Below are positions 1,552 through 5,919 of a DNA stretch of 6,160 bases, one piece after another. This DNA is from a virus. The position numbers were made by a program, and so were the translations under genes. Every line of letters begins with the position of its first letter. Position 1 is the first letter of the stretch. The notes beneath the pieces are model-generated. The model had not been told where the DNA came from. It saw nothing but the letters and a program-made list of their open reading frames with translations, and searched no databases. The stretch spans positions 1-6,160 of the IMG/VR virus record IMGVR_UViG_3300020030_000092; one strand, given 5' to 3'.

Positions 1552-1875
1552 ATGAAACAGATTCATATCGTTCTTCGCCGCGTTAATCCGGCTCTTGACA
1601 TTGACCTTGTCCAGGTCGGCTACCTTAAAGATGGGCAGTTTTCGTAGTTGTCCCTGGATGTTTTCGAGGATACTCCCATTTTCGATCACTTCGTTCGTTC
1701 GGCTATTTCGAATCTGCCTTATATTCCCCATAGCCTTATCTCTCGTCTCTTAGCTGACCTTGCCGCTTATCCGCATTTTGCGGTCGATTTTTTCGATAAT
1801 ACGCTTGTCCTCATGTTTGATTTTAAACTCGATTGCGATGAAAGCTCGACGGAAGAAGAAAGGAAGAGGAGTTAA
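1552..1875 (+). CDS. Hypothetical protein reading frame of 107 codons, interrupted by an in-frame amber codon at 1645-1647. It could be a readthrough or recoded gene, a nonsense-mutated gene, or two ORFs of 31 aa (ATG) and 75 aa (TTG).
   Basis: ATG 1552 lies 11 nt after the previous stop. The frame reads MKQIHIVLRRVNPALDIDLVQVGYLKDGQFS-TAG-LSLDVFEDTPIFDHFVRSAISNLPY...EEERKRS-TAA. Both halves share the genome-typical codon usage (GAT, GCT, CTT, CGT, TTT). The downstream 75 codons have no ATG start, only a TTG immediately after the TAG. The first in-frame ATG is 1813-1815, which leaves only 20 codons. Confidence 0.45.
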
Positions 1876-2119
1876 GATCGTAACCCGTCCTCTTGGTGGA
1901 AGAGTTCTTTGACAGTGAAGCTCCCGGGAGAGTTCTCTCTTCCTGGGAGTTTTCGCTCGTAGACTCACCGGATTTATCCGGTATAAAGATTCGTGAAGTG
2001 GAGCCATGGAGCCCGAAGACGCGAAGCGTCCCGGCCGCTAGGCCGTCGGGCGGCGTAACGAAACAGTTTTCGCGCTCGAAAGTACCGCCTTTCGAAGCGC
2101 AAAGTATTATTTTACGATT
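1876..2119 (+). promoter_or_regulatory. Structured G+C-rich intergenic region upstream of the ORF66/VP4 module. It is a candidate replication origin or ssDNA recognition element.
   Basis: There is no ATG-initiated ORF longer than 11 codons on the + strand. Stem-loops are present at these positions:
- 1890-1904: ctctt/ggtgg/aagag.
- 1967-1982: accggat-tt-atccggt.
- 2018-2030: gacgc-GAA-gcgtc, which contains GCGAAGC.
- 2032-2045: cggcc-gcta-ggccg.
- 2059-2072: cgaaa-cagt-tttcg.
- 2072-2100: an 11-bp stem with one bulged A.
There is also a 10-nt palindrome CTCCCGGGAG at 1921-1930. An imperfect direct repeat pairs ggaagagttcttt (1898-1910) with gggagagttctct (1926-1938). Nt 2011-2100 are about two-thirds G+C by hand count. 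Confidence 0.5.
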
Positions 2120-2320
2120 ATGGATAAGTTTGATTTTCGCCCCCGTTTCTCCCCCGTGATTGACAGTATTTCTTACCGTTTTTCTATTGGAGCGTACCGC
2201 GGCAAAAAACGAGTTGTTATCGCCTGGTTTTCCGAGGAAGAGCCCGCCAAAGATTACCTTATTCGCTGCCGTCTTGACCATCCCGCTATTAGATTTGACT
2301 GCCTTCAAAGTTTCTTGTAA
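2120..2320 (+). CDS. Hypothetical small protein, 66 aa, translationally coupled to VP4
   Basis: ATG 2120. The stop TAA 2318-2320 overlaps the VP4 start ATG 2320-2322 (TAATG). The sequence looks like a real protein (GKKRVVIAWFSEEEPAKDYLIRCRLDHPAIRF) and is slightly basic. Codon usage matches the core genes. Confidence 0.65.
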   Translation: MDKFDFRPRFSPVIDSISYRFSIGAYRGKKRVVIAWFSEEEPAKDYLIRCRLDHPAIRFDCLQSFL

Positions 2321-3390
2321 TGCCTTGTTCGTCGCCCATATGGATACGTAATCGTCGCTATTTTGACAAGAAGAATCCTTGTCGTGATGGCTCTGACGTC
2401 TCGAAGTCCGCTTTGGCACTCCGTCCCTGGGACATCGCTCGTCAATGGCTCATGGTCCCATGCGGAAAGTGCGAAGACTGCCTGCGTCGTCAGCGTAATG
2501 ATTGGTTCGTGCGTCTAGAGCGCGAGCTTGCTCGTTGCAAGGCTGAATCACAGCAGGCTATTTTCATTACGATAACCATAGCCCCTAGGTATTACGATGA
2601 AGCGTTGCGGGATCCCTCTAAGTTTATTCGGCGATGGAATGAGCGCATTCGTCACGCGCTCGGACATTCTTTTAAGCATGCGTTTTTTCAAGAGTTCGGT
2701 ACCCACCCCGAAACAGGCTCGGCTCCTCGTCTACATTTCCACGGATTTCTTTTCGGGACCAATTGCATGTATAATCAGATTCGAGCGGCTGTCCGCGACC
2801 TCGGTTTTGTTTGGCTGGCGAAGGGCACACATCAGCGCGCGCGATATGTCGTTAAATATGTTACTAAACAGATTCAGTTTAATCCCGAAGAAATTTCGGA
2901 CAAATATGTTACCATAGATGGAAACTCTACACCTTTATCTTGTCTCCTCCAACATCGCCGTTATACGCGAAAATTCGTATCTGCTGGCGTTGGTGATTTT
3001 CTTGGTTATATGCCTCGTCCTTCTGCTCGCACTTCGTCGTGGTCTTATTTTGATTTTGAGAAGCGTATCGATTATAAGTACTCGATTCCTCGATATTATC
3101 TTAGATACCTTAAACCGGAAGACGACGTTATTCGCTCGATTACCGCCGCTGATTCTTATGCACGTTTTAGCAAGTCTTCTCTGGTTAGGCGTGTTGTGTC
3201 TTTGTGTGTTGAACGGTTCAATCTCGATTCCTCCGTATCCCGTAGAGCGTCTTATACGTGGGAGCAAAAGCAAATAATGCGTTTTTCCGCCTCTTCTCGG
3301 AAAATGCCCGACCTCGATCCTCCAACGTGGCTGGACTTAGCCATTCTTCAATTTTGGAGAGATCACTATAAACTTCAACTAAACATTTAA
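2320..3390 (+). CDS. VP4: Rolling-circle replication initiation protein (HUH endonuclease), Microviridae VP4 / phiX gpA-like
   Basis: It carries three rolling-circle replication motifs:
- Motif 1-like: IFITITIAP.
- HUH motif: RLHFHGFLF, with His-Phe-His at nt 2734-2742.
- Double-tyrosine catalytic motif: YVVKYVTK at nt 2845-2868. Compare YVAKYVNK of phiX174 gpA.
The N-terminal MPCSSPIWIRN and CGKCEDCLRRQRNDW are typical of gokusho/alpavirus VP4. Stop is TAA, 3 nt before the VP1 ATG. Confidence 0.93.
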   Translation: MPCSSPIWIRNRRYFDKKNPCRDGSDVSKSALALRPWDIARQWLMVPCGKCEDCLRRQRNDWFVRLERELARCKAESQQAIFITITIAPRYYDEALRDPSKFIRRWNERIRHALGHSFKHAFFQEFGTHPETGSAPRLHFHGFLFGTNCMYNQIRAAVRDLGFVWLAKGTHQRARYVVKYVTKQIQFNPEEISDKYVTIDGNSTPLSCLLQHRRYTRKFVSAGVGDFLGYMPRPSARTSSWSYFDFEKRIDYKYSIPRYYLRYLKPEDDVIRSITAADSYARFSKSSLVRRVVSLCVERFNLDSSVSRRASYTWEQKQIMRFSASSRKMPDLDPPTWLDLAILQFWRDHYKLQLNI

Positions 3391-3393
3391 TTT

Positions 3394-5190
3394 ATGGGAA
3401 AACAACCTTTTATCTCACACGCTGTAAATGGTTACTCTCGCTACGATGTCCCTGAGAGTAAAGCCTTTACGTGTACGCCGGGTATTTTGTATCCGGTGCG
3501 GATCGATTTTATTAACGCCCGGGACCGTGTGTCTATCGAGCAAGGGGTCGATATTCGCAGTAACCCGCTTGCTGTCCCGACATTCAATCCCTATACTATT
3601 CGGCTTCACCGCTTTTGGGTGCCGCTCCAGTTGTATCATCCTGAGATGAGGACAAATAGCAGTAAGTTTGATATGAACGAGTTGAGCCTGAATTGGATTT
3701 GTTGCACGTTTCCCTCTGCTAGTGGTTTGAATATTGATTTCTTTGGCGCGTCGTATACAAACTCGCTTTTCTCTTGGCTGCGTATTGGCAACAAGTATAA
3801 TATGGGCGGCACTGCGCTGGCGTCGACTTCTCTTCCAGCGTCTGCTACTATTTCTCAGTGGTCTAATGCTGATTCGTATTTGGCTTATTGGGATATTGTT
3901 CGAAATTATTACGGTTATTCACAGTGGGGGCTCTATTCTTTCGCGTGGCCTATGGCGAACAAGCTGATTAGTTCGGGTTCCTCGTATACTCTTGACCCTG
4001 AAAATTCGGGCGATGCCAGATTTTTTACACAATGCTATGGCAATCTCGAGTTTCTCGATGCTTTTTATGAGAGCCAATTTTATCCGTCTGCTGTGAGCTC
4101 CTCTAATAATACGTTTAATCGCGGTAATCTCTTTTATCAAATCATCCGCTCTGATTTGAGGAGTGGCAGCGCTGCCTCCGACGGCTATCCCGTTGCTAAT
4201 AGTTATCCTTCCACGACTGCGCTTGGTTCTACGGGTCTTCTTTCGCAAACCCTTCCCACTACCAATTCTACCCCCGCTTCGTCTTTGGCTTATTTTTTGG
4301 TGGCGCACCCAATGGCTGTCGTGCCATCGAATCCCGACCGGTTTAGTCGCCTCATTCCCGTAGGTTCGTCCTCGGCCGTTTCCATGTCGGGCGTTAGCAC
4401 TATTCCACAGTTGGCTATTGCCTCTCGTCTTCAAGAGTACAAAGACCTTCTGGGCGCCGGTGGCAGCCGCTATAGTGATTGGTTGGAGACATTTTTTGCC
4501 TCTAAGATTGAGCATGTTGACCGGCCGAAACTCCTTTTTAGCGCCTCTCAGACAGTCAATGTTCAGATTGTGATGAATCAGGCGGGGGATAATAATTTTT
4601 CTGGTAATCAGCCTCTTGGTCAACAAGGTGGTTCTATTGCTTTCAACGATCGTTTGGGTCGCCGGCAGTCTTATTATTTCCGCGAGCCGGGCTATTTGAT
4701 TGATATGTTAAGCATTAGGCCTGTCTACTATTGGAGTTTCATTAAACCGGACTATCTCAATTATAAGGGCCCCGATTATTTCAACCCTATTTACAACGAT
4801 ATTGGCTACCAGGACGTCCCGGGCTTCCGCATAGCGTTTAACGCCAATCCTGGCAGCAGTTTTGCTACTGAGCCGTGCTTTAACGAGTTTCGTTCCTCTT
4901 ATGATGAGGTTCTTGGCCAGCTCCAAGCCTACTACAAGAATCCCGCCGAGGGTGGCTCCGGCGCTCCCCTTTATTCTTATTGGGTTCAACAGCGCACTGT
5001 TTTGACCTCCAGTGGCTCCGGCTCTTTACCCGAGCCTTCCTATTATCCGATGCTTTTTACCGACTTATTGCAGGTGAACTCGCCCTTTAATTCGACGGTT
5101 GAGGATAATTTCTTCGTAAACATGTCCTATTCGGTTCAGAAGAAGAACTTGATTAATAAGACGTTTGCAACCCGTTTGTCTAATCGTTAA
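3394..5190 (+). CDS. VP1: Major capsid protein (Microviridae VP1 / F-like jelly-roll), 598 aa
   Basis: It is the longest ORF and has no internal stops. The N-terminal pattern is FTCTPGILYPV...DRVSI...RSNPLAVPTFNPYTIRLHRFWVPLQLY. This parallels the conserved G-L-P / R..P...P....v..ffFVP.R block of microvirus capsid proteins. Its position directly after VP4 also fits. A long Ser/Thr/Pro/Ala-rich central insertion (about nt 4130-4400) fits the variable surface loop. Confidence 0.92.
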   Translation: MGKQPFISHAVNGYSRYDVPESKAFTCTPGILYPVRIDFINARDRVSIEQGVDIRSNPLAVPTFNPYTIRLHRFWVPLQLYHPEMRTNSSKFDMNELSLNWICCTFPSASGLNIDFFGASYTNSLFSWLRIGNKYNMGGTALASTSLPASATISQWSNADSYLAYWDIVRNYYGYSQWGLYSFAWPMANKLISSGSSYTLDPENSGDARFFTQCYGNLEFLDAFYESQFYPSAVSSSNNTFNRGNLFYQIIRSDLRSGSAASDGYPVANSYPSTTALGSTGLLSQTLPTTNSTPASSLAYFLVAHPMAVVPSNPDRFSRLIPVGSSSAVSMSGVSTIPQLAIASRLQEYKDLLGAGGSRYSDWLETFFASKIEHVDRPKLLFSASQTVNVQIVMNQAGDNNFSGNQPLGQQGGSIAFNDRLGRRQSYYFREPGYLIDMLSIRPVYYWSFIKPDYLNYKGPDYFNPIYNDIGYQDVPGFRIAFNANPGSSFATEPCFNEFRSSYDEVLGQLQAYYKNPAEGGSGAPLYSYWVQQRTVLTSSGSGSLPEPSYYPMLFTDLLQVNSPFNSTVEDNFFVNMSYSVQKKNLINKTFATRLSNR

Positions 5191-5202
5191 TGTATTGATT
5201 TT

Positions 5203-5499
5203 ATGGCACTTGATTGGCTTCTTGAAGACACTCCCGCCTACATTTCTCGCGGTCAGCGTATTCTCTCCGTTCTTGATGGTTCTGGTTCTATTGACGTCCT
5301 TCCTGGCCGTCCGGATGTAGCAGTAGAGCCTTCTGATTTCGATAAGGGAGAAAGATTTAATCCCGAGATTGATTTCGACCCTAATTCCTTTTCCCGTATG
5401 GATAAGTTCGATGGTCTCGAAGTTGGCCAGGAACTCATTGATTCAGAGATAGATAGGTCGAAGGCCACTGCGAAACCCCCTAAACTTGAAGAAAAATAG
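5203..5499 (+). CDS. Hypothetical acidic protein, 98 aa. It may be an internal scaffolding (VP3-like) protein, but the function is not established.
   Basis: ATG lies 12 nt after the VP1 stop. The protein is strongly Asp/Glu-rich (EPSDFDKGERFNPEIDFDPNSF...ELIDSEIDRSK). It ends at TAG 5497-5499. Its codon usage matches the core genes. Confidence 0.65.
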   Translation: MALDWLLEDTPAYISRGQRILSVLDGSGSIDVLPGRPDVAVEPSDFDKGERFNPEIDFDPNSFSRMDKFDGLEVGQELIDSEIDRSKATAKPPKLEEK

Positions 5500-5727
5500 T
5501 ACTCTCTTTACTTGACGATATATGCTACGTGCGCGGACCCCTTCTGGAGAGTGCGTGAATTTCTGAAGGTTATTGGTAACGACTGCCGGAGAGGCCGCGC
5601 ATTTTTCTATCGTTCTTTATTCAATTGTTTACACCATTGTGGCGAGGTGACGCATTTCGCGGTTCGGAGAACCGACCCGAACGAAGTGAGGGTGCGGCAC
5701 CGTAGCTTCCCTTAAAATTTCAATACC
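5500..5727 (+). other. Second intergenic-like region of 228 nt. It is either noncoding with stem-loops, or a TAG-readthrough or TTG-initiated extension (ORF-track 5512..5715).
   Basis: The frame of ORF 5203 stays open past TAG to TAA 5713-5715, but codon third positions lose the T-richness seen in the core genes. The product is Arg/Cys/His-rich. Local hairpins are cggttc-gga-gaaccg (5660-5674), or alternatively gttcgg/ccgaac (5662-5667/5677-5682), and ggtg-cgg-cacc (5691-5701). A long-range 7-bp pairing links tgcgcgg (5530-5536) with ccgcgca (5595-5601) and is followed by a T-run. Confidence 0.4.
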
Positions 5728-5919
5728 ATGTCAGACGTTAAGCAACCTTTCTACAAATCGAAGGCTTTTTGGACGCTCGCCTCGTCTATTATCGCTGCCT
5801 TGGCCGCCTTTTTTCTTGCTTCTTGTTCTGCCCAGGCTAGAATGCAGCGTAGCGGCGTTCACATCGACACTGTCCGCGTTGATTACATTATTCGTTCTAA
5901 CAATTTAACTCACATTTAG
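5728..5919 (+). CDS. Predicted small lipoprotein / membrane-anchored peptide, 63 aa
   Basis: ATG 5728. The stop TAG 5917-5919 lies 1 nt before the VP2 ATG. The N-region carries Lys at positions 5, 10 and 12. A hydrophobic core reads AFWTLASSIIAALAAFFLAS. The lipobox is Leu-Ala-Ser-Cys at nt 5815-5826, with Cys33 encoded by TGT 5824-5826. The predicted mature peptide is 31 aa. Confidence 0.65.
   Translation: MSDVKQPFYKSKAFWTLASSIIAALAAFFLASCSAQARMQRSGVHIDTVRVDYIIRSNNLTHI

What the first reader, a model, noticed from the sequence alone, without database searches (positions are those of the whole stretch)
1952..2119. Dense G+C-rich stem-loop cluster directly upstream of the replication module: candidate origin
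Five stem-loops pack into about 135 nt of apparently noncoding sequence:
- 1967-1982: 7-bp arms.
- 2018-2030: gacgc-GAA-gcgtc.
- 2032-2045: an all-GC 5-bp stem.
- 2059-2072.
- 2072-2100: 11 bp with one bulged A.

The second contains GCGAAGC, the motif known to form an unusually thermostable DNA mini-hairpin (a GNA triloop on a C:G closing pair). Nt 2011-2100 are about two-thirds G+C by hand count, clearly richer than the flanking genes. In ssDNA replicons, structured DNA next to the HUH Rep gene commonly serves as the nick site or as the complementary-strand priming signal. Origins of non-phiX microviruses are essentially unmapped.
Basis: partly seen in the sequence, partly recalled or inferred. 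Interest (0 to 1): 0.65.

Follow-up and report, generated by a model that had tools for sequence, protein, structure and literature searches.

The report
Swappable folded-DNA cassette in gut microviruses
The G+C-rich hairpin cluster is real and evolutionarily conserved, but it is an optional cassette that very different gut microviruses share. It most likely helps the host start copying the phage's single DNA strand, and it is not the site where the phage's own replication protein cuts.

Summary
The window is a circular microvirus genome of about 6,039 nt. The 1876-2119 gap is noncoding and folds far better than shuffles (z = -4.0).

Across 53 distinct copies from relatives, 99.7% of predicted pairs hold and 9 pairs show compensatory changes. 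The fifth (2059-2072) is replaced by long-range pairs that close a 72-nt three-way junction (C1, 1993-2064). A near-invariant hairpin follows (C2, 2071-2100).

The cluster is accessory:
- Twelve of 71 close relatives lack it.
- Others carry a different structured cassette at the same place.
- Roughly 97%-identical copies sit in three other microvirus lineages whose capsid and Rep proteins are only 21-30% identical. They occupy other intergenic positions, and in one lineage they run antisense to the genes.

So it cannot be the essential Rep nick site. A universal, near-invariant element at 5506-5619 is the better candidate for that.

C1 carries two DNA mini-hairpin motifs: GCGNAGC, and a GNNA loop on a C:G closing pair. 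Its anatomy matches the phage G4 complementary-strand origin.

Best reading (about 0.4): an exchangeable single-strand initiation (complementary-strand origin) cassette. Rivals are a structured RNA and a selfish mobile element. No experiment bears on this yet.

The parts
1878..1911 (+). Block A: a roughly 34-nt noncoding block conserved in all 71 extracted relatives (consensus GT.ACCCGCCCGCTTGGTGGAAGAGTTCTTT). It lies outside the accessory cassette and is a backbone cis element of unknown role.
   Evidence: present in short and long intergenic variants alike.
1921..1953 (+). Terminator-like hairpin (CTCCCGGGAGAG...CTCTTCCTGGGAG) followed by TTTT. It ends the upstream gene block.
   Evidence: terminator scan; fold. 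In the alignment the stem is kept through different sequences, for example CCCCAGGAGA/TCTCCTGTGGG and CCTGTGGGAGA/TCTCCTGCAGG.
1967..1988 (+). H0 hairpin (ACCGGAT-TT-ATCCGGT) plus the TATAAA/TATATA box. It always sits directly 5' of the cassette in lineages 1 and 3. Lineage 2 has a 3-bp ACC-GTA-GGT mini-hairpin there instead.
   Evidence: compensatory variants; same arrangement in other lineages.
1993..2064 (+). Cassette C1, a closed three-way junction.
- P1: 1993-94 / 2063-64.
- P1b: 1998-99 / 2058-59.
- P2: 2003-05 / 2052-54.
- P3: 2011-16 / 2046-51.
- P4: 2018-22 / 2026-30, with a G-N-A triloop (GCGAAGC).
- P5: 2032-36 / 2041-45, with a GCTA loop here and GTTA or GTTAA in relatives.
   Evidence: every helix is 98-100% paired, 8 of 23 pairs have double changes, and the loop N is A, C, G or T while the flanking G and A are fixed. 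The only one-sided changes are G.T, on this strand.
2071..2100 (+). Cassette C2: hairpin CGC..TCGAAAG-TACCGC-CTTTCGA(A)GCG. Its apex, TCGAAAGTACCGYCTTTCGA, is invariant in four virus lineages and sits on a different lower stem in lineage 4.
2101..2119 (+). A+T-rich tail (AAAGTATTATTTTACGATT) before the ATG of the 66-aa ORF. It is backbone sequence, also present in relatives that lack the cassette.
5506..5619 (+). Not part of the cassette, but relevant to the 'origin' question. This noncoding element is near-invariant in 78-79 of 80 relatives. It contains CTTTACTTGACGATATATGC and a long hairpin, GCGCGGACC...GGCCGCGC, followed by a T-run. It is the best candidate for an essential cis element such as the Rep (+) origin.
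   Evidence: Many GenBank relatives at 68-75% identity still align up to about 5619.

Best explanation
Nt 1967-2100 form an accessory, horizontally exchanged cassette (H0 + C1 + C2) that acts as folded single-stranded DNA on the encapsidated strand. I read it as a single-strand initiation signal, that is, a complementary (minus)-strand origin.

Proposed mechanism, all steps inferred:
1. After the ssDNA enters the cell, host SSB coats it everywhere except at these very stable hairpins.
2. The hairpins display a few fixed single-stranded motifs: the G-N-A triloop, the GTTA(A) loop and the TACCGYC loop.
3. A host priming enzyme (primase, a PriA-type primosome or RNA polymerase) recognises the fold and lays down the primer that turns ssDNA into the replicative form.

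Shown here:
- The fold exists.
- It is under selection.
- In this lineage it is selected on the + strand.
- It is noncoding.
- It is dispensable and swappable.
- It moves between distant viruses.

Inferred: that it works as DNA rather than RNA, and that what it does is priming.
For: 1. Structure under selection: 99.7% pairing and 9 compensatory pairs across 53 distinct copies.
2. Strand: in the C1+C2 alignment (52 of 53 copies from lineage 1) all 8 one-sided changes give G.T on the + strand and none gives A.C.
3. DNA-type loops: P4 is GCGNAGC, with N free and G/A fixed. P5 is C-GTTA-G or C-GCTA-G. A third cassette type (L022, L050, L052, L064) has GCC-GAA-GGC and CCGC-GAA-GCGG. A review (PMC13037366) reports GCGAAAGC at the G4 primase start site, GCGTTAGC in St-1 and alpha3, and CCGAAGG in RSF1010 ssiA. 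It also reports that such mini-hairpins bind SSB poorly.
4. Same anatomy as the annotated G4 complementary-strand origin: a 136-nt intergenic region with three G+C-rich hairpins, -29.1 kcal/mol, z = -4.7. C1+C2 is 113 nt, -29.2 kcal/mol, z = -3.3.
5. Cassette behaviour like plasmid single-strand origins: presence/absence and replacement among close relatives. Copies are about 97% identical in lineages whose MCP and Rep are 21-30% identical. Position is always intergenic but varies.
6. No tRNA, no Rfam family at E <= 10 and no sigma-70-type promoter in 1500-2400.
7. In all four lineages the cassette lies on the T-rich strand. T-richness of the encapsidated strand is the documented ssDNA-phage signature (PMC4032129).
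Against: - No experiment or read data bear on priming. Public runs hold these viruses only as undirected contigs.
- In lineage 2 the cassette is antisense to every gene. If that lineage packages the sense strand, as every studied microvirus does, the cassette is on the wrong strand there.
- The recent-substitution spectrum of lineage 2 (C>T above G>A, and A>G above T>C, on the sense strand) looks like lineage 1. It does not suggest antisense packaging.
- Within lineage 2, G.T and A.C changes are about equal (about 3-4 to 3, counted by hand).
- Some relatives have no cassette in either intergenic region, so any priming role is auxiliary.
- No conserved 5'-CTG-3' primase start lies next to the hairpins.
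- Nearest-neighbour energies do not separate the two strands.
- A TATATA box 3-10 nt upstream of the cassette in three lineages would also fit a transcription unit.
Confidence: 0.4

Rival explanations
1. Structured noncoding RNA. The cassette is transcribed from the adjacent TATATA box. It acts either as a 5' leader of the ORF66-Rep message in this lineage or as a free small RNA of about 110-190 nt that binds a host or phage factor.
For: - It sits between a terminator-like hairpin (1921-1953) and the next start codon.
- GGTATATA lies 3-10 nt upstream of the cassette, on the cassette strand, in lineages 1, 2 and 3.
- A gene with its own promoter is free to sit in either orientation, which would explain lineage 2.
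- The fold is also significant with RNA parameters: -47.7 kcal/mol, z = -2.5.
- The covariation is equally compatible with RNA.
Against: - No Rfam family even at E <= 10.
- No sigma-70-type promoter by scan.
- TATATA is not the Bacteroidota promoter type, and lineage 3 sits in host contigs I take to be Bacteroidales. That host assignment rests on my own knowledge of Bacteroidota microvirus proviruses and was not tested.
- No T-run terminator after C2 in any lineage.
- Loops are GNA and GTTA on C:G closing pairs, which are typical stable DNA motifs. They are not GNRA or UNCG, the typical stable RNA loops.
- A cis-acting leader role cannot hold in lineage 2 (antisense) or lineage 4 (between MCP and VP2).
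Confidence: 0.2
2. Selfish or hitch-hiking mobile cassette. A miniature structured element spreads among co-infecting microviruses by illegitimate or microhomology-mediated recombination, or by an HUH enzyme acting in trans. It has no dedicated benefit to the phage.
For: - Presence/absence among close relatives.
- Nearly identical copies in lineages with 21-30% protein identity.
- Three different genomic positions and both orientations.
- Short GTAT(A) similarity at both borders when the filled site (L072) is compared by eye with a genome lacking the cassette (L074).
- Contig L237 joins a lineage-1 flank to a lineage-2 flank at the cassette.
- Depth over the cassette is about 4 times that of the rest of the phage in wastewater runs, with several different flanks.
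Against: - Structure and loop sequences are under strong purifying selection. This needs a reason, although hairpin-dependent transposition would supply one.
- There are no terminal inverted repeats, and no target duplication has been verified.
- These 6-kb genomes carry no transposase.
- The C2 apex has no copies beyond chance in one genome from each of 185,579 bacterial and archaeal species. Five hits were found, all inside ordinary coding-like sequence, against about 4 expected by my arithmetic.
- There is never more than one copy per genome, apart from one partial duplication (L214).
Confidence: 0.25
3. Viral (+)-strand origin: the hairpins present the site where Rep (VP4) nicks to start and end rolling-circle replication.
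For: It lies upstream of the Rep operon in lineages 1 and 2. HUH Rep proteins often use hairpin-borne nick sites (established knowledge). On this reading the cassette's orientation would define the displaced strand, which would fit its constant association with the T-rich strand.
Against: - Absent from 12 of 71 close relatives and replaced in about 10 others, although Rep is 84-92% identical.
- The same cassette serves viruses with 24-30% identical Rep.
- Universal, near-invariant noncoding elements exist elsewhere (5506-5619 and 1878-1911).
Confidence: 0.05
4. Protein-coding: part of ORF 1893-2159 (+) or ORF 1823-2419 (-).
For: Both ORFs are open in the window. The minus-strand frame is open across the gap in 27 of 50 long variants.
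Against: - 1-nt indels among close relatives, and length mod 3 spread evenly.
- No family hits.
- The substitution pattern is pairwise-compensatory rather than codon-periodic.
- The minus strand is T-poor, so it is poor in stop codons by composition alone.
Confidence: 0.01

Closest known systems
Complementary-strand origin of phage G4 (also St-1, alpha3, phiK): a primase (DnaG)-dependent 'G4-type' single-strand initiation signal
   Same: - A microvirus intergenic region of about 110-140 nt.
- Three G+C-rich hairpins with comparable folding energy and z-score.
- Contains a GCGNAGC/GCGNNAGC-class mini-hairpin.
- Non-homologous between related phages.
   Different: - No sequence similarity, and the covariance model built here does not hit the G4 origin.
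- The architecture is a three-way junction plus a hairpin, not three tandem hairpins.
- No conserved CTG start site.
- Optional here, and shared between very distant viruses.
- The host is probably not an enterobacterium.
- Function untested.
Single-strand origins (ssoA, ssoU, ssoT, ssoW) of rolling-circle plasmids, and ssiA/ssiB of RSF1010
   Same: Strand-specific, highly structured, noncoding and dispensable. They are exchanged between replicons as cassettes independently of the Rep/dso module (established knowledge). RSF1010 ssiA carries a CCGAAGG mini-hairpin, the same motif as GCC-GAA-GGC in the third cassette type here.
   Different: The ssoA consensus CS-6 (TAGCGT/A) appears only in copies whose triloop N is T, so it is not conserved. 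No RSB element was identified. The cassette sits in a virus, not a plasmid.
phiX174 primosome assembly site (n'/PriA recognition hairpin) and the f1/M13 minus-strand origin
   Same: An intergenic hairpin or hairpins on the viral strand that escape SSB and recruit host priming machinery. They are dispensable in f1 at a cost in yield (established knowledge).
   Different: No sequence or architectural match could be tested here. The M13 type mimics a promoter in its stems, and no such -35/-10 pair is evident here.
Folded-ssDNA attP of CTX-phi and dif-type integration of temperate microviruses
   Same: Lineage-3 relatives that carry the cassette are prophages flanked by a 15-nt dif-like direct repeat, TCATTATGTTAAATT. 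Their excised 5,891-nt circle is seen in reads.
   Different: The repeat lies about 400-500 nt away from the cassette, not in it. The window virus shows no such repeat next to the cassette. The attP reading is therefore rejected for the cassette itself.

Membership tests
G4-type (primase-dependent) complementary-strand origin | Lies in noncoding DNA on the encapsidated strand. | tested here: inconclusive
   Noncoding: yes. On the gene-sense, T-rich strand in lineages 1, 3 and 4, but antisense to the genes in lineage 2. Which strand is packaged was not measurable.
G4-type (primase-dependent) complementary-strand origin | Cluster of stable hairpins, including a GCGNAGC/GCGNNAGC mini-hairpin, that resists SSB. 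| tested here: met
   The fold is significant and conserved. GCGAAGC lies at 2021-2027, with N free across relatives. SSB resistance itself was not testable.
G4-type (primase-dependent) complementary-strand origin | Primase start trinucleotide (5'-CTG-3' for E. coli DnaG) just 3' of the hairpin that is copied. | tested here: not met
   No conserved CTG in or next to C1 or C2. G4 has CTACTG at its annotated start. The specificity of the unknown host's primase may differ.
G4-type (primase-dependent) complementary-strand origin | Supports primer synthesis and ssDNA-to-RF conversion. | not testable with these tools
   Needs an in vitro priming or ssi-cloning assay.
ssoA-type single-strand origin of RCR plasmids | Conserved CS-6 (TAGCGT/A) in a terminal loop, plus an RSB element. 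| tested here: not met
   TAGCGT occurs only where the triloop N is T. N is A, C, G or T across copies.
Microvirus (+) origin (Rep nick site) | Present in every genome that encodes the cognate Rep, and co-varying with Rep. | tested here: not met
   Absent or replaced in about 22 of 71 close relatives. Shared with viruses whose Rep is 24-30% identical.
Known RNA families (Rfam 15) and tRNA/tmRNA | Match to a curated covariance model, or a cloverleaf. | tested here: not met
   Zero matches at E <= 10 on both strands. ARAGORN finds none.
Intrinsic (rho-independent) terminator: applies to hairpin 1921-1953 only, not to the cassette | G+C-rich stem-loop immediately followed by a T-run, downstream of a gene. 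| tested here: met
   The stem is kept with different sequences in relatives. C2 is not followed directly by a T-run.
MITE / IS200-IS605-type palindrome-associated element | Many copies in host or other genomes, defined ends with a target motif, and a cognate transposase. | tested here: not met
   The C2 apex occurs only at chance level in 185,579 species genomes. There is one copy per virus and no transposase. Ends and target were not rigorously mapped.

The most novel reading that the evidence does not exclude
The cassette belongs to a family of strand-specific folded-ssDNA 'priming modules' that gut microviruses trade across deep lineages. It always marks the encapsidated strand. If so, the large A-rich lineage that carries it antisense (lineage 2, whose 80 of 80 sampled relatives also have A-rich sense strands) would package the strand complementary to its mRNAs. 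These would be negative-sense microviruses, something never described for this family.
Probability: 0.1. Interest if true: 0.9.

Novelty: new variant of a known kind. Interest (0 to 1): 0.6.

Why it matters
Replication signals are mapped only for phiX174-like coliphages. For the hundreds of thousands of gut and environmental microviruses, neither origin is known. This work yields concrete, testable candidates:
- an exchangeable, covariation-supported hairpin cassette as the complementary-strand signal;
- a separate universal element (5506-5619) as the essential origin.

It also shows that noncoding structured modules move between microviruses that share almost no protein similarity. Such exchange could set or widen host range, because complementary-strand priming depends wholly on host enzymes. 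Finally, it raises the question of which strand the A-rich lineage packages.

Tried and rejected
- tRNA or suppressor tRNA. This was prompted by an in-frame TAG at 1645. ARAGORN finds none, and TAG also ends two other ORFs.
- Known RNA families: none at E <= 10.
- Coding: rejected.
- attP or dif site. Lineage-3 prophages do have dif-like repeats, but they lie 400-500 nt from the cassette.
- Host-derived repeat or MITE: only chance-level hits in the species genome set.
- Hits to the C1 pattern in large GC-rich phage contigs (L098, L112, L116, L125, L132) lack the rest of the module and are taken as chance.
- Genome-wide strand asymmetry of C-GNA-G / C-GNNA-G mini-hairpins: clear only where C1 or the third cassette type is present, so it is not a general signature.
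- Homologue of the universal 5506-5619 element, or a phiX-like ACTTG..ATAT motif, in the other lineages. I sought this to orient their nicked strand, and none was found. The phiX-like AACTTGATTAATAA at 5153-5166 (motif hit from 5147), inside the capsid gene, varies at third codon positions, so it is a coincidence.
- Reads to settle strand or transcription. All holding runs are kept as undirected contigs, mostly wastewater total-nucleic-acid libraries.
- Singleton substitution spectra to infer the packaged strand of lineage 2. The spectrum is not mirrored relative to lineage 1. This weakens, but does not exclude, antisense packaging, because polarisation by majority rule and transcription-linked deamination confound it.
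- The covariance model of C1+C2 found no divergent copies in 76 A-rich microviruses, in short-gap relatives or in the G4 origin.

Full report
WHAT THE WINDOW IS

The 6,160 bases are a circular microvirus genome of about 6,039 nt, read with a 121-nt terminal overlap. All genes are on the + strand:
- pilot protein VP2: 5921, wrapping to 1138;
- two small ORFs: 1220-1540 and 1552/1648-1875;
- a 66-aa ORF: 2120-2320;
- Rep/VP4: 2320-3390 (PF23343, phrog_942);
- major capsid protein: 3394-5190 (Phage_F, phrog_514);
- two more small ORFs.

There are two sizeable noncoding gaps: 1876-2119, which is the finding, and 5500-5727.

- G+C reaches 0.65 in 2001-2100.
- As ssDNA, 1876-2119 folds at -50.1 kcal/mol against -35.5 +/- 3.6 for dinucleotide shuffles. 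That is z = -4.0, and none of 200 shuffles folds as well.
- The opposite strand folds equally well.
- There is no tRNA and no Rfam family even at E <= 10.

COMPARATIVE EVIDENCE

Eighty IMG/VR relatives with 84-92% identical Rep were fetched. More came from pattern scans. In many relatives the gap is better conserved at the nucleotide level (85-91%) than the flanking genes (76-88%).

An alignment of 53 distinct copies of nt 1993-2105 gives a consensus fold in which:
- 99.7% of pair cells are standard pairs;
- 9 of 33 pairs show compensatory double changes, in 97 cells;
- no shuffle out of 500 reaches this;
- sliding the partners by 1-3 columns drops pairing to 23-45%.

The fold consists of two units.

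C1 (1993-2064) is a closed three-way junction. Four stacked helices (P1, P1b, P2, P3) carry two hairpins:
- P4 is GACGC-GNA-GCGTC. The middle loop base is A, C, G or T, while the flanking G and A are fixed.
- P5 is CGGCC-GYTA(A)-GGCCG.

C2 (2071-2100) is a nearly invariant hairpin with a TACCGYC loop and a bulged A.

H0 (1967-1982) also covaries.

Its 5' arm (2059-2064) forms the long-range helices P1 and P1b instead.

All eight one-sided changes give G.T on the + strand and none gives A.C. In this lineage, therefore, the fold is selected on the gene-sense strand.

The region is not translated. Loops differ by single-base indels, gap length mod 3 is evenly spread, and no frame is consistently open.

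THE CLUSTER IS AN OPTIONAL, SWAPPABLE CASSETTE

The gap is modular. Every relative has three backbone pieces:
- block A (1878-1911);
- a terminator-like hairpin (1921-1953);
- the A+T-rich tail before the next ATG.

The rest varies among the 71 extracted relatives:
- 12 have nothing else (gap of 98-137 nt);
- 49 have H0+C1+C2;
- about 9 have a different rod-like structured cassette (C') in the same place, which has its own compensatory changes;
- one has C'+C2, and two have C1 without C2;
- four carry a third G+C-rich insert inside the terminator loop, with GCC-GAA-GGC and CCGC-GAA-GCGG mini-hairpins.

Some genomes lack any extra cassette in either gap.

THE SAME CASSETTE OCCURS IN VERY DIFFERENT VIRUSES

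The 20-nt C2 apex was found in four microvirus lineages. The capsid and Rep proteins of lineages 1-3 are only 21-30% identical to one another. Lineages 3 and 4 are closer to each other, at about 55% for the capsid protein and 68% for Rep. The cassettes themselves are about 97% identical, for example L110 against L072.

Position and orientation by lineage:
- Lineage 1 (the window): upstream of ORF66-Rep.
- Lineage 2: between VP2 and Rep, but antisense to all genes.
- Lineage 3: after VP2.
- Lineage 4: between the capsid gene and VP2, with the conserved apex on a different lower stem.

C1 and C' alternate in lineage 2 as they do in lineage 1. In one genome from each of 185,579 bacterial and archaeal species, the apex occurs only at chance level and only inside ordinary coding-like sequence. 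It is therefore not a host repeat. In wastewater runs the cassette bin has about four times the depth of the rest of a lineage-3 phage, and several different flanks join it. That fits many viruses sharing the cassette.

WHAT IT IS NOT

It is not the Rep nick site. An essential, Rep-matched origin cannot be absent from close relatives and also be shared by viruses with unrelated Rep proteins.

A better candidate is 5506-5619. It is near-invariant in 78-79 of 80 relatives and far more conserved than the coding DNA around it. It contains CTTTACTTGACGATATATGC and a long hairpin.

It is also not the integration site. Lineage-3 prophages are flanked by a dif-like 15-nt repeat that lies 400-500 nt away from the cassette.

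WHAT IT MOST LIKELY IS

Its closest match by anatomy is the complementary-strand origin of phage G4. The annotated G4 origin is a 136-nt intergenic region with three G+C-rich hairpins (-29.1 kcal/mol, z = -4.7). It includes GCGAAAGC at the primer site.

A recent review (PMC13037366) documents this motif class at several single-strand initiation sites:
- GCGNAGC/GCGNNAGC mini-hairpins at the G4, St-1 and alpha3 origins;
- the same class in RSF1010 ssiA (CCGAAGG);
- the same class in N4 virion-RNA-polymerase promoters.

The review also reports their poor binding of SSB. Both hairpins of C1 belong to this motif class, and so do those of the third cassette type.

Plasmid single-strand origins likewise behave as dispensable, strand-specific cassettes that are exchanged independently of Rep (established knowledge).

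I therefore favour an accessory single-strand initiation signal. In this model the hairpins stay free of SSB on the incoming strand, display fixed loop motifs, and recruit a host priming enzyme. That the cassette works as DNA, and that it primes, are both inferences.

THE MAIN DIFFICULTY

In lineage 2 the cassette is antisense to the genes. The cassette is on the T-rich strand in all four lineages. Lineage 2 and all 80 sampled relatives of its capsid protein have strongly A-rich sense strands: A 0.35-0.47 and T 0.16-0.29. This is the mirror image of the window, which has T 0.31 and A 0.215, with third-codon T at 0.41-0.43.

A T-rich encapsidated strand is the known ssDNA-phage signature (PMC4032129). 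One reading is therefore that this lineage packages the antisense strand, which would rescue the priming model.

Two observations count against that reading:
- Singleton substitutions in lineage 2 show C>T above G>A, and A>G above T>C, on the sense strand, as in lineage 1.
- Within lineage 2, G.T and A.C changes are about equal (counted by hand).

So the packaged strand there is unresolved. No public run keeps read direction for these viruses.

RIVALS

- A structured RNA driven by the TATATA box that precedes the cassette in three lineages would tolerate either orientation. Against it: no Rfam match, no scanned promoter, no terminator after C2, and DNA-type loops.
- A selfish mobile cassette fits the patchy, multi-lineage, two-orientation distribution. 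Against it: no ends, no target duplication, no transposase, no host copies, and only one copy per genome.

VERDICT

The 'origin' interpretation is half right at best: the cluster is not the nick site, but it is plausibly a complementary-strand signal. It is a new variant of a known kind, with an unusual pattern of horizontal exchange.

Noticed in passing
window 5506-5619: A noncoding element that is near-invariant in 78-79 of 80 relatives, much more conserved than neighbouring codons. It contains CTTTACTTGACGATATATGC plus a long hairpin, GCGCGGACC...GGCCGCGC, followed by a T-run. It is a candidate essential cis element such as the Rep (+) origin. GenBank relatives at 68-75% identity still align up to about 5619.
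   Followed up: partly
window 5620-5727: A second accessory structured cassette, with the mini-hairpin CGGTTC-GGA-GAACCG. It is present in only about 14-24 of 79 relatives, so both intergenic regions carry optional modules. Some genomes have neither.
   Followed up: partly
window 1552-1875 (TAG at 1645-1647): An ATG-started ORF is interrupted by an in-frame TAG. Only the part from TTG 1648 onward is open. TAG also ends ORFs 5203-5499 and 5728-5919, so recoding is unlikely. The cause is a nonsense mutation, a sequencing error or a short ORF.
   Followed up: partly
L166/L110, L167, L168, L172 (MG945515) and L240-L315: A large microvirus lineage has strongly A-rich, T-poor sense strands: A 0.35-0.47 and T 0.16-0.29, with third-codon A at 0.36-0.44. 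This mirrors the T-rich sense strand of the window lineage. The recent-substitution spectrum is not mirrored. Which strand these viruses package appears to be unknown.
   Followed up: partly
L183 (locus coordinates 3225-3239 and 9116-9130); also L179, L191, L205, L222: Lineage-3 microviruses are prophages flanked by the 15-nt direct repeat TCATTATGTTAAATT, which resembles the XerD arm of dif. The host flanks encode RelA/SpoT-like and HIT-like proteins on one side and formate/nitrite-transporter-like and zinc-ABC-like proteins on the other, judged by eye and not searched. The prophage occurs in both orientations between the same flanks. The excised 5,891-nt circle junction is present in a wastewater run.
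   Followed up: partly
L214 (8,343-nt contig): Partial tandem duplication: the capsid C-terminus, a small ORF, VP2 and the cassette all appear twice, 2,654 nt apart. This is either an assembly artefact or a real duplication bounded by the cassette.
   Followed up: no
L237 (2,015-nt contig): The upstream flank is of the window-lineage type and the downstream flank of the lineage-2 type, joined at the shared cassette. This is either a recombinant or an assembly chimera across the shared 110-190 nt.
   Followed up: no
window 1878-1911: A 34-nt block directly after the stop of the upstream ORF is conserved in all relatives, whatever their cassette content. It contains CTTGGTGG and a small CCnCC/GGnGG hairpin. 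Its role is unknown.
   Followed up: partly
C1 loop (window 2036-2041 equivalent) and the C' internal loop in L009, L011, L154 and others: The two otherwise different cassettes share two features: the single-stranded motif CCGTTAAG, and a GCCGAAGA-hairpin arrangement. This suggests a common ligand or distant common ancestry. The window itself has the variant CCGCTAGG.
   Followed up: no
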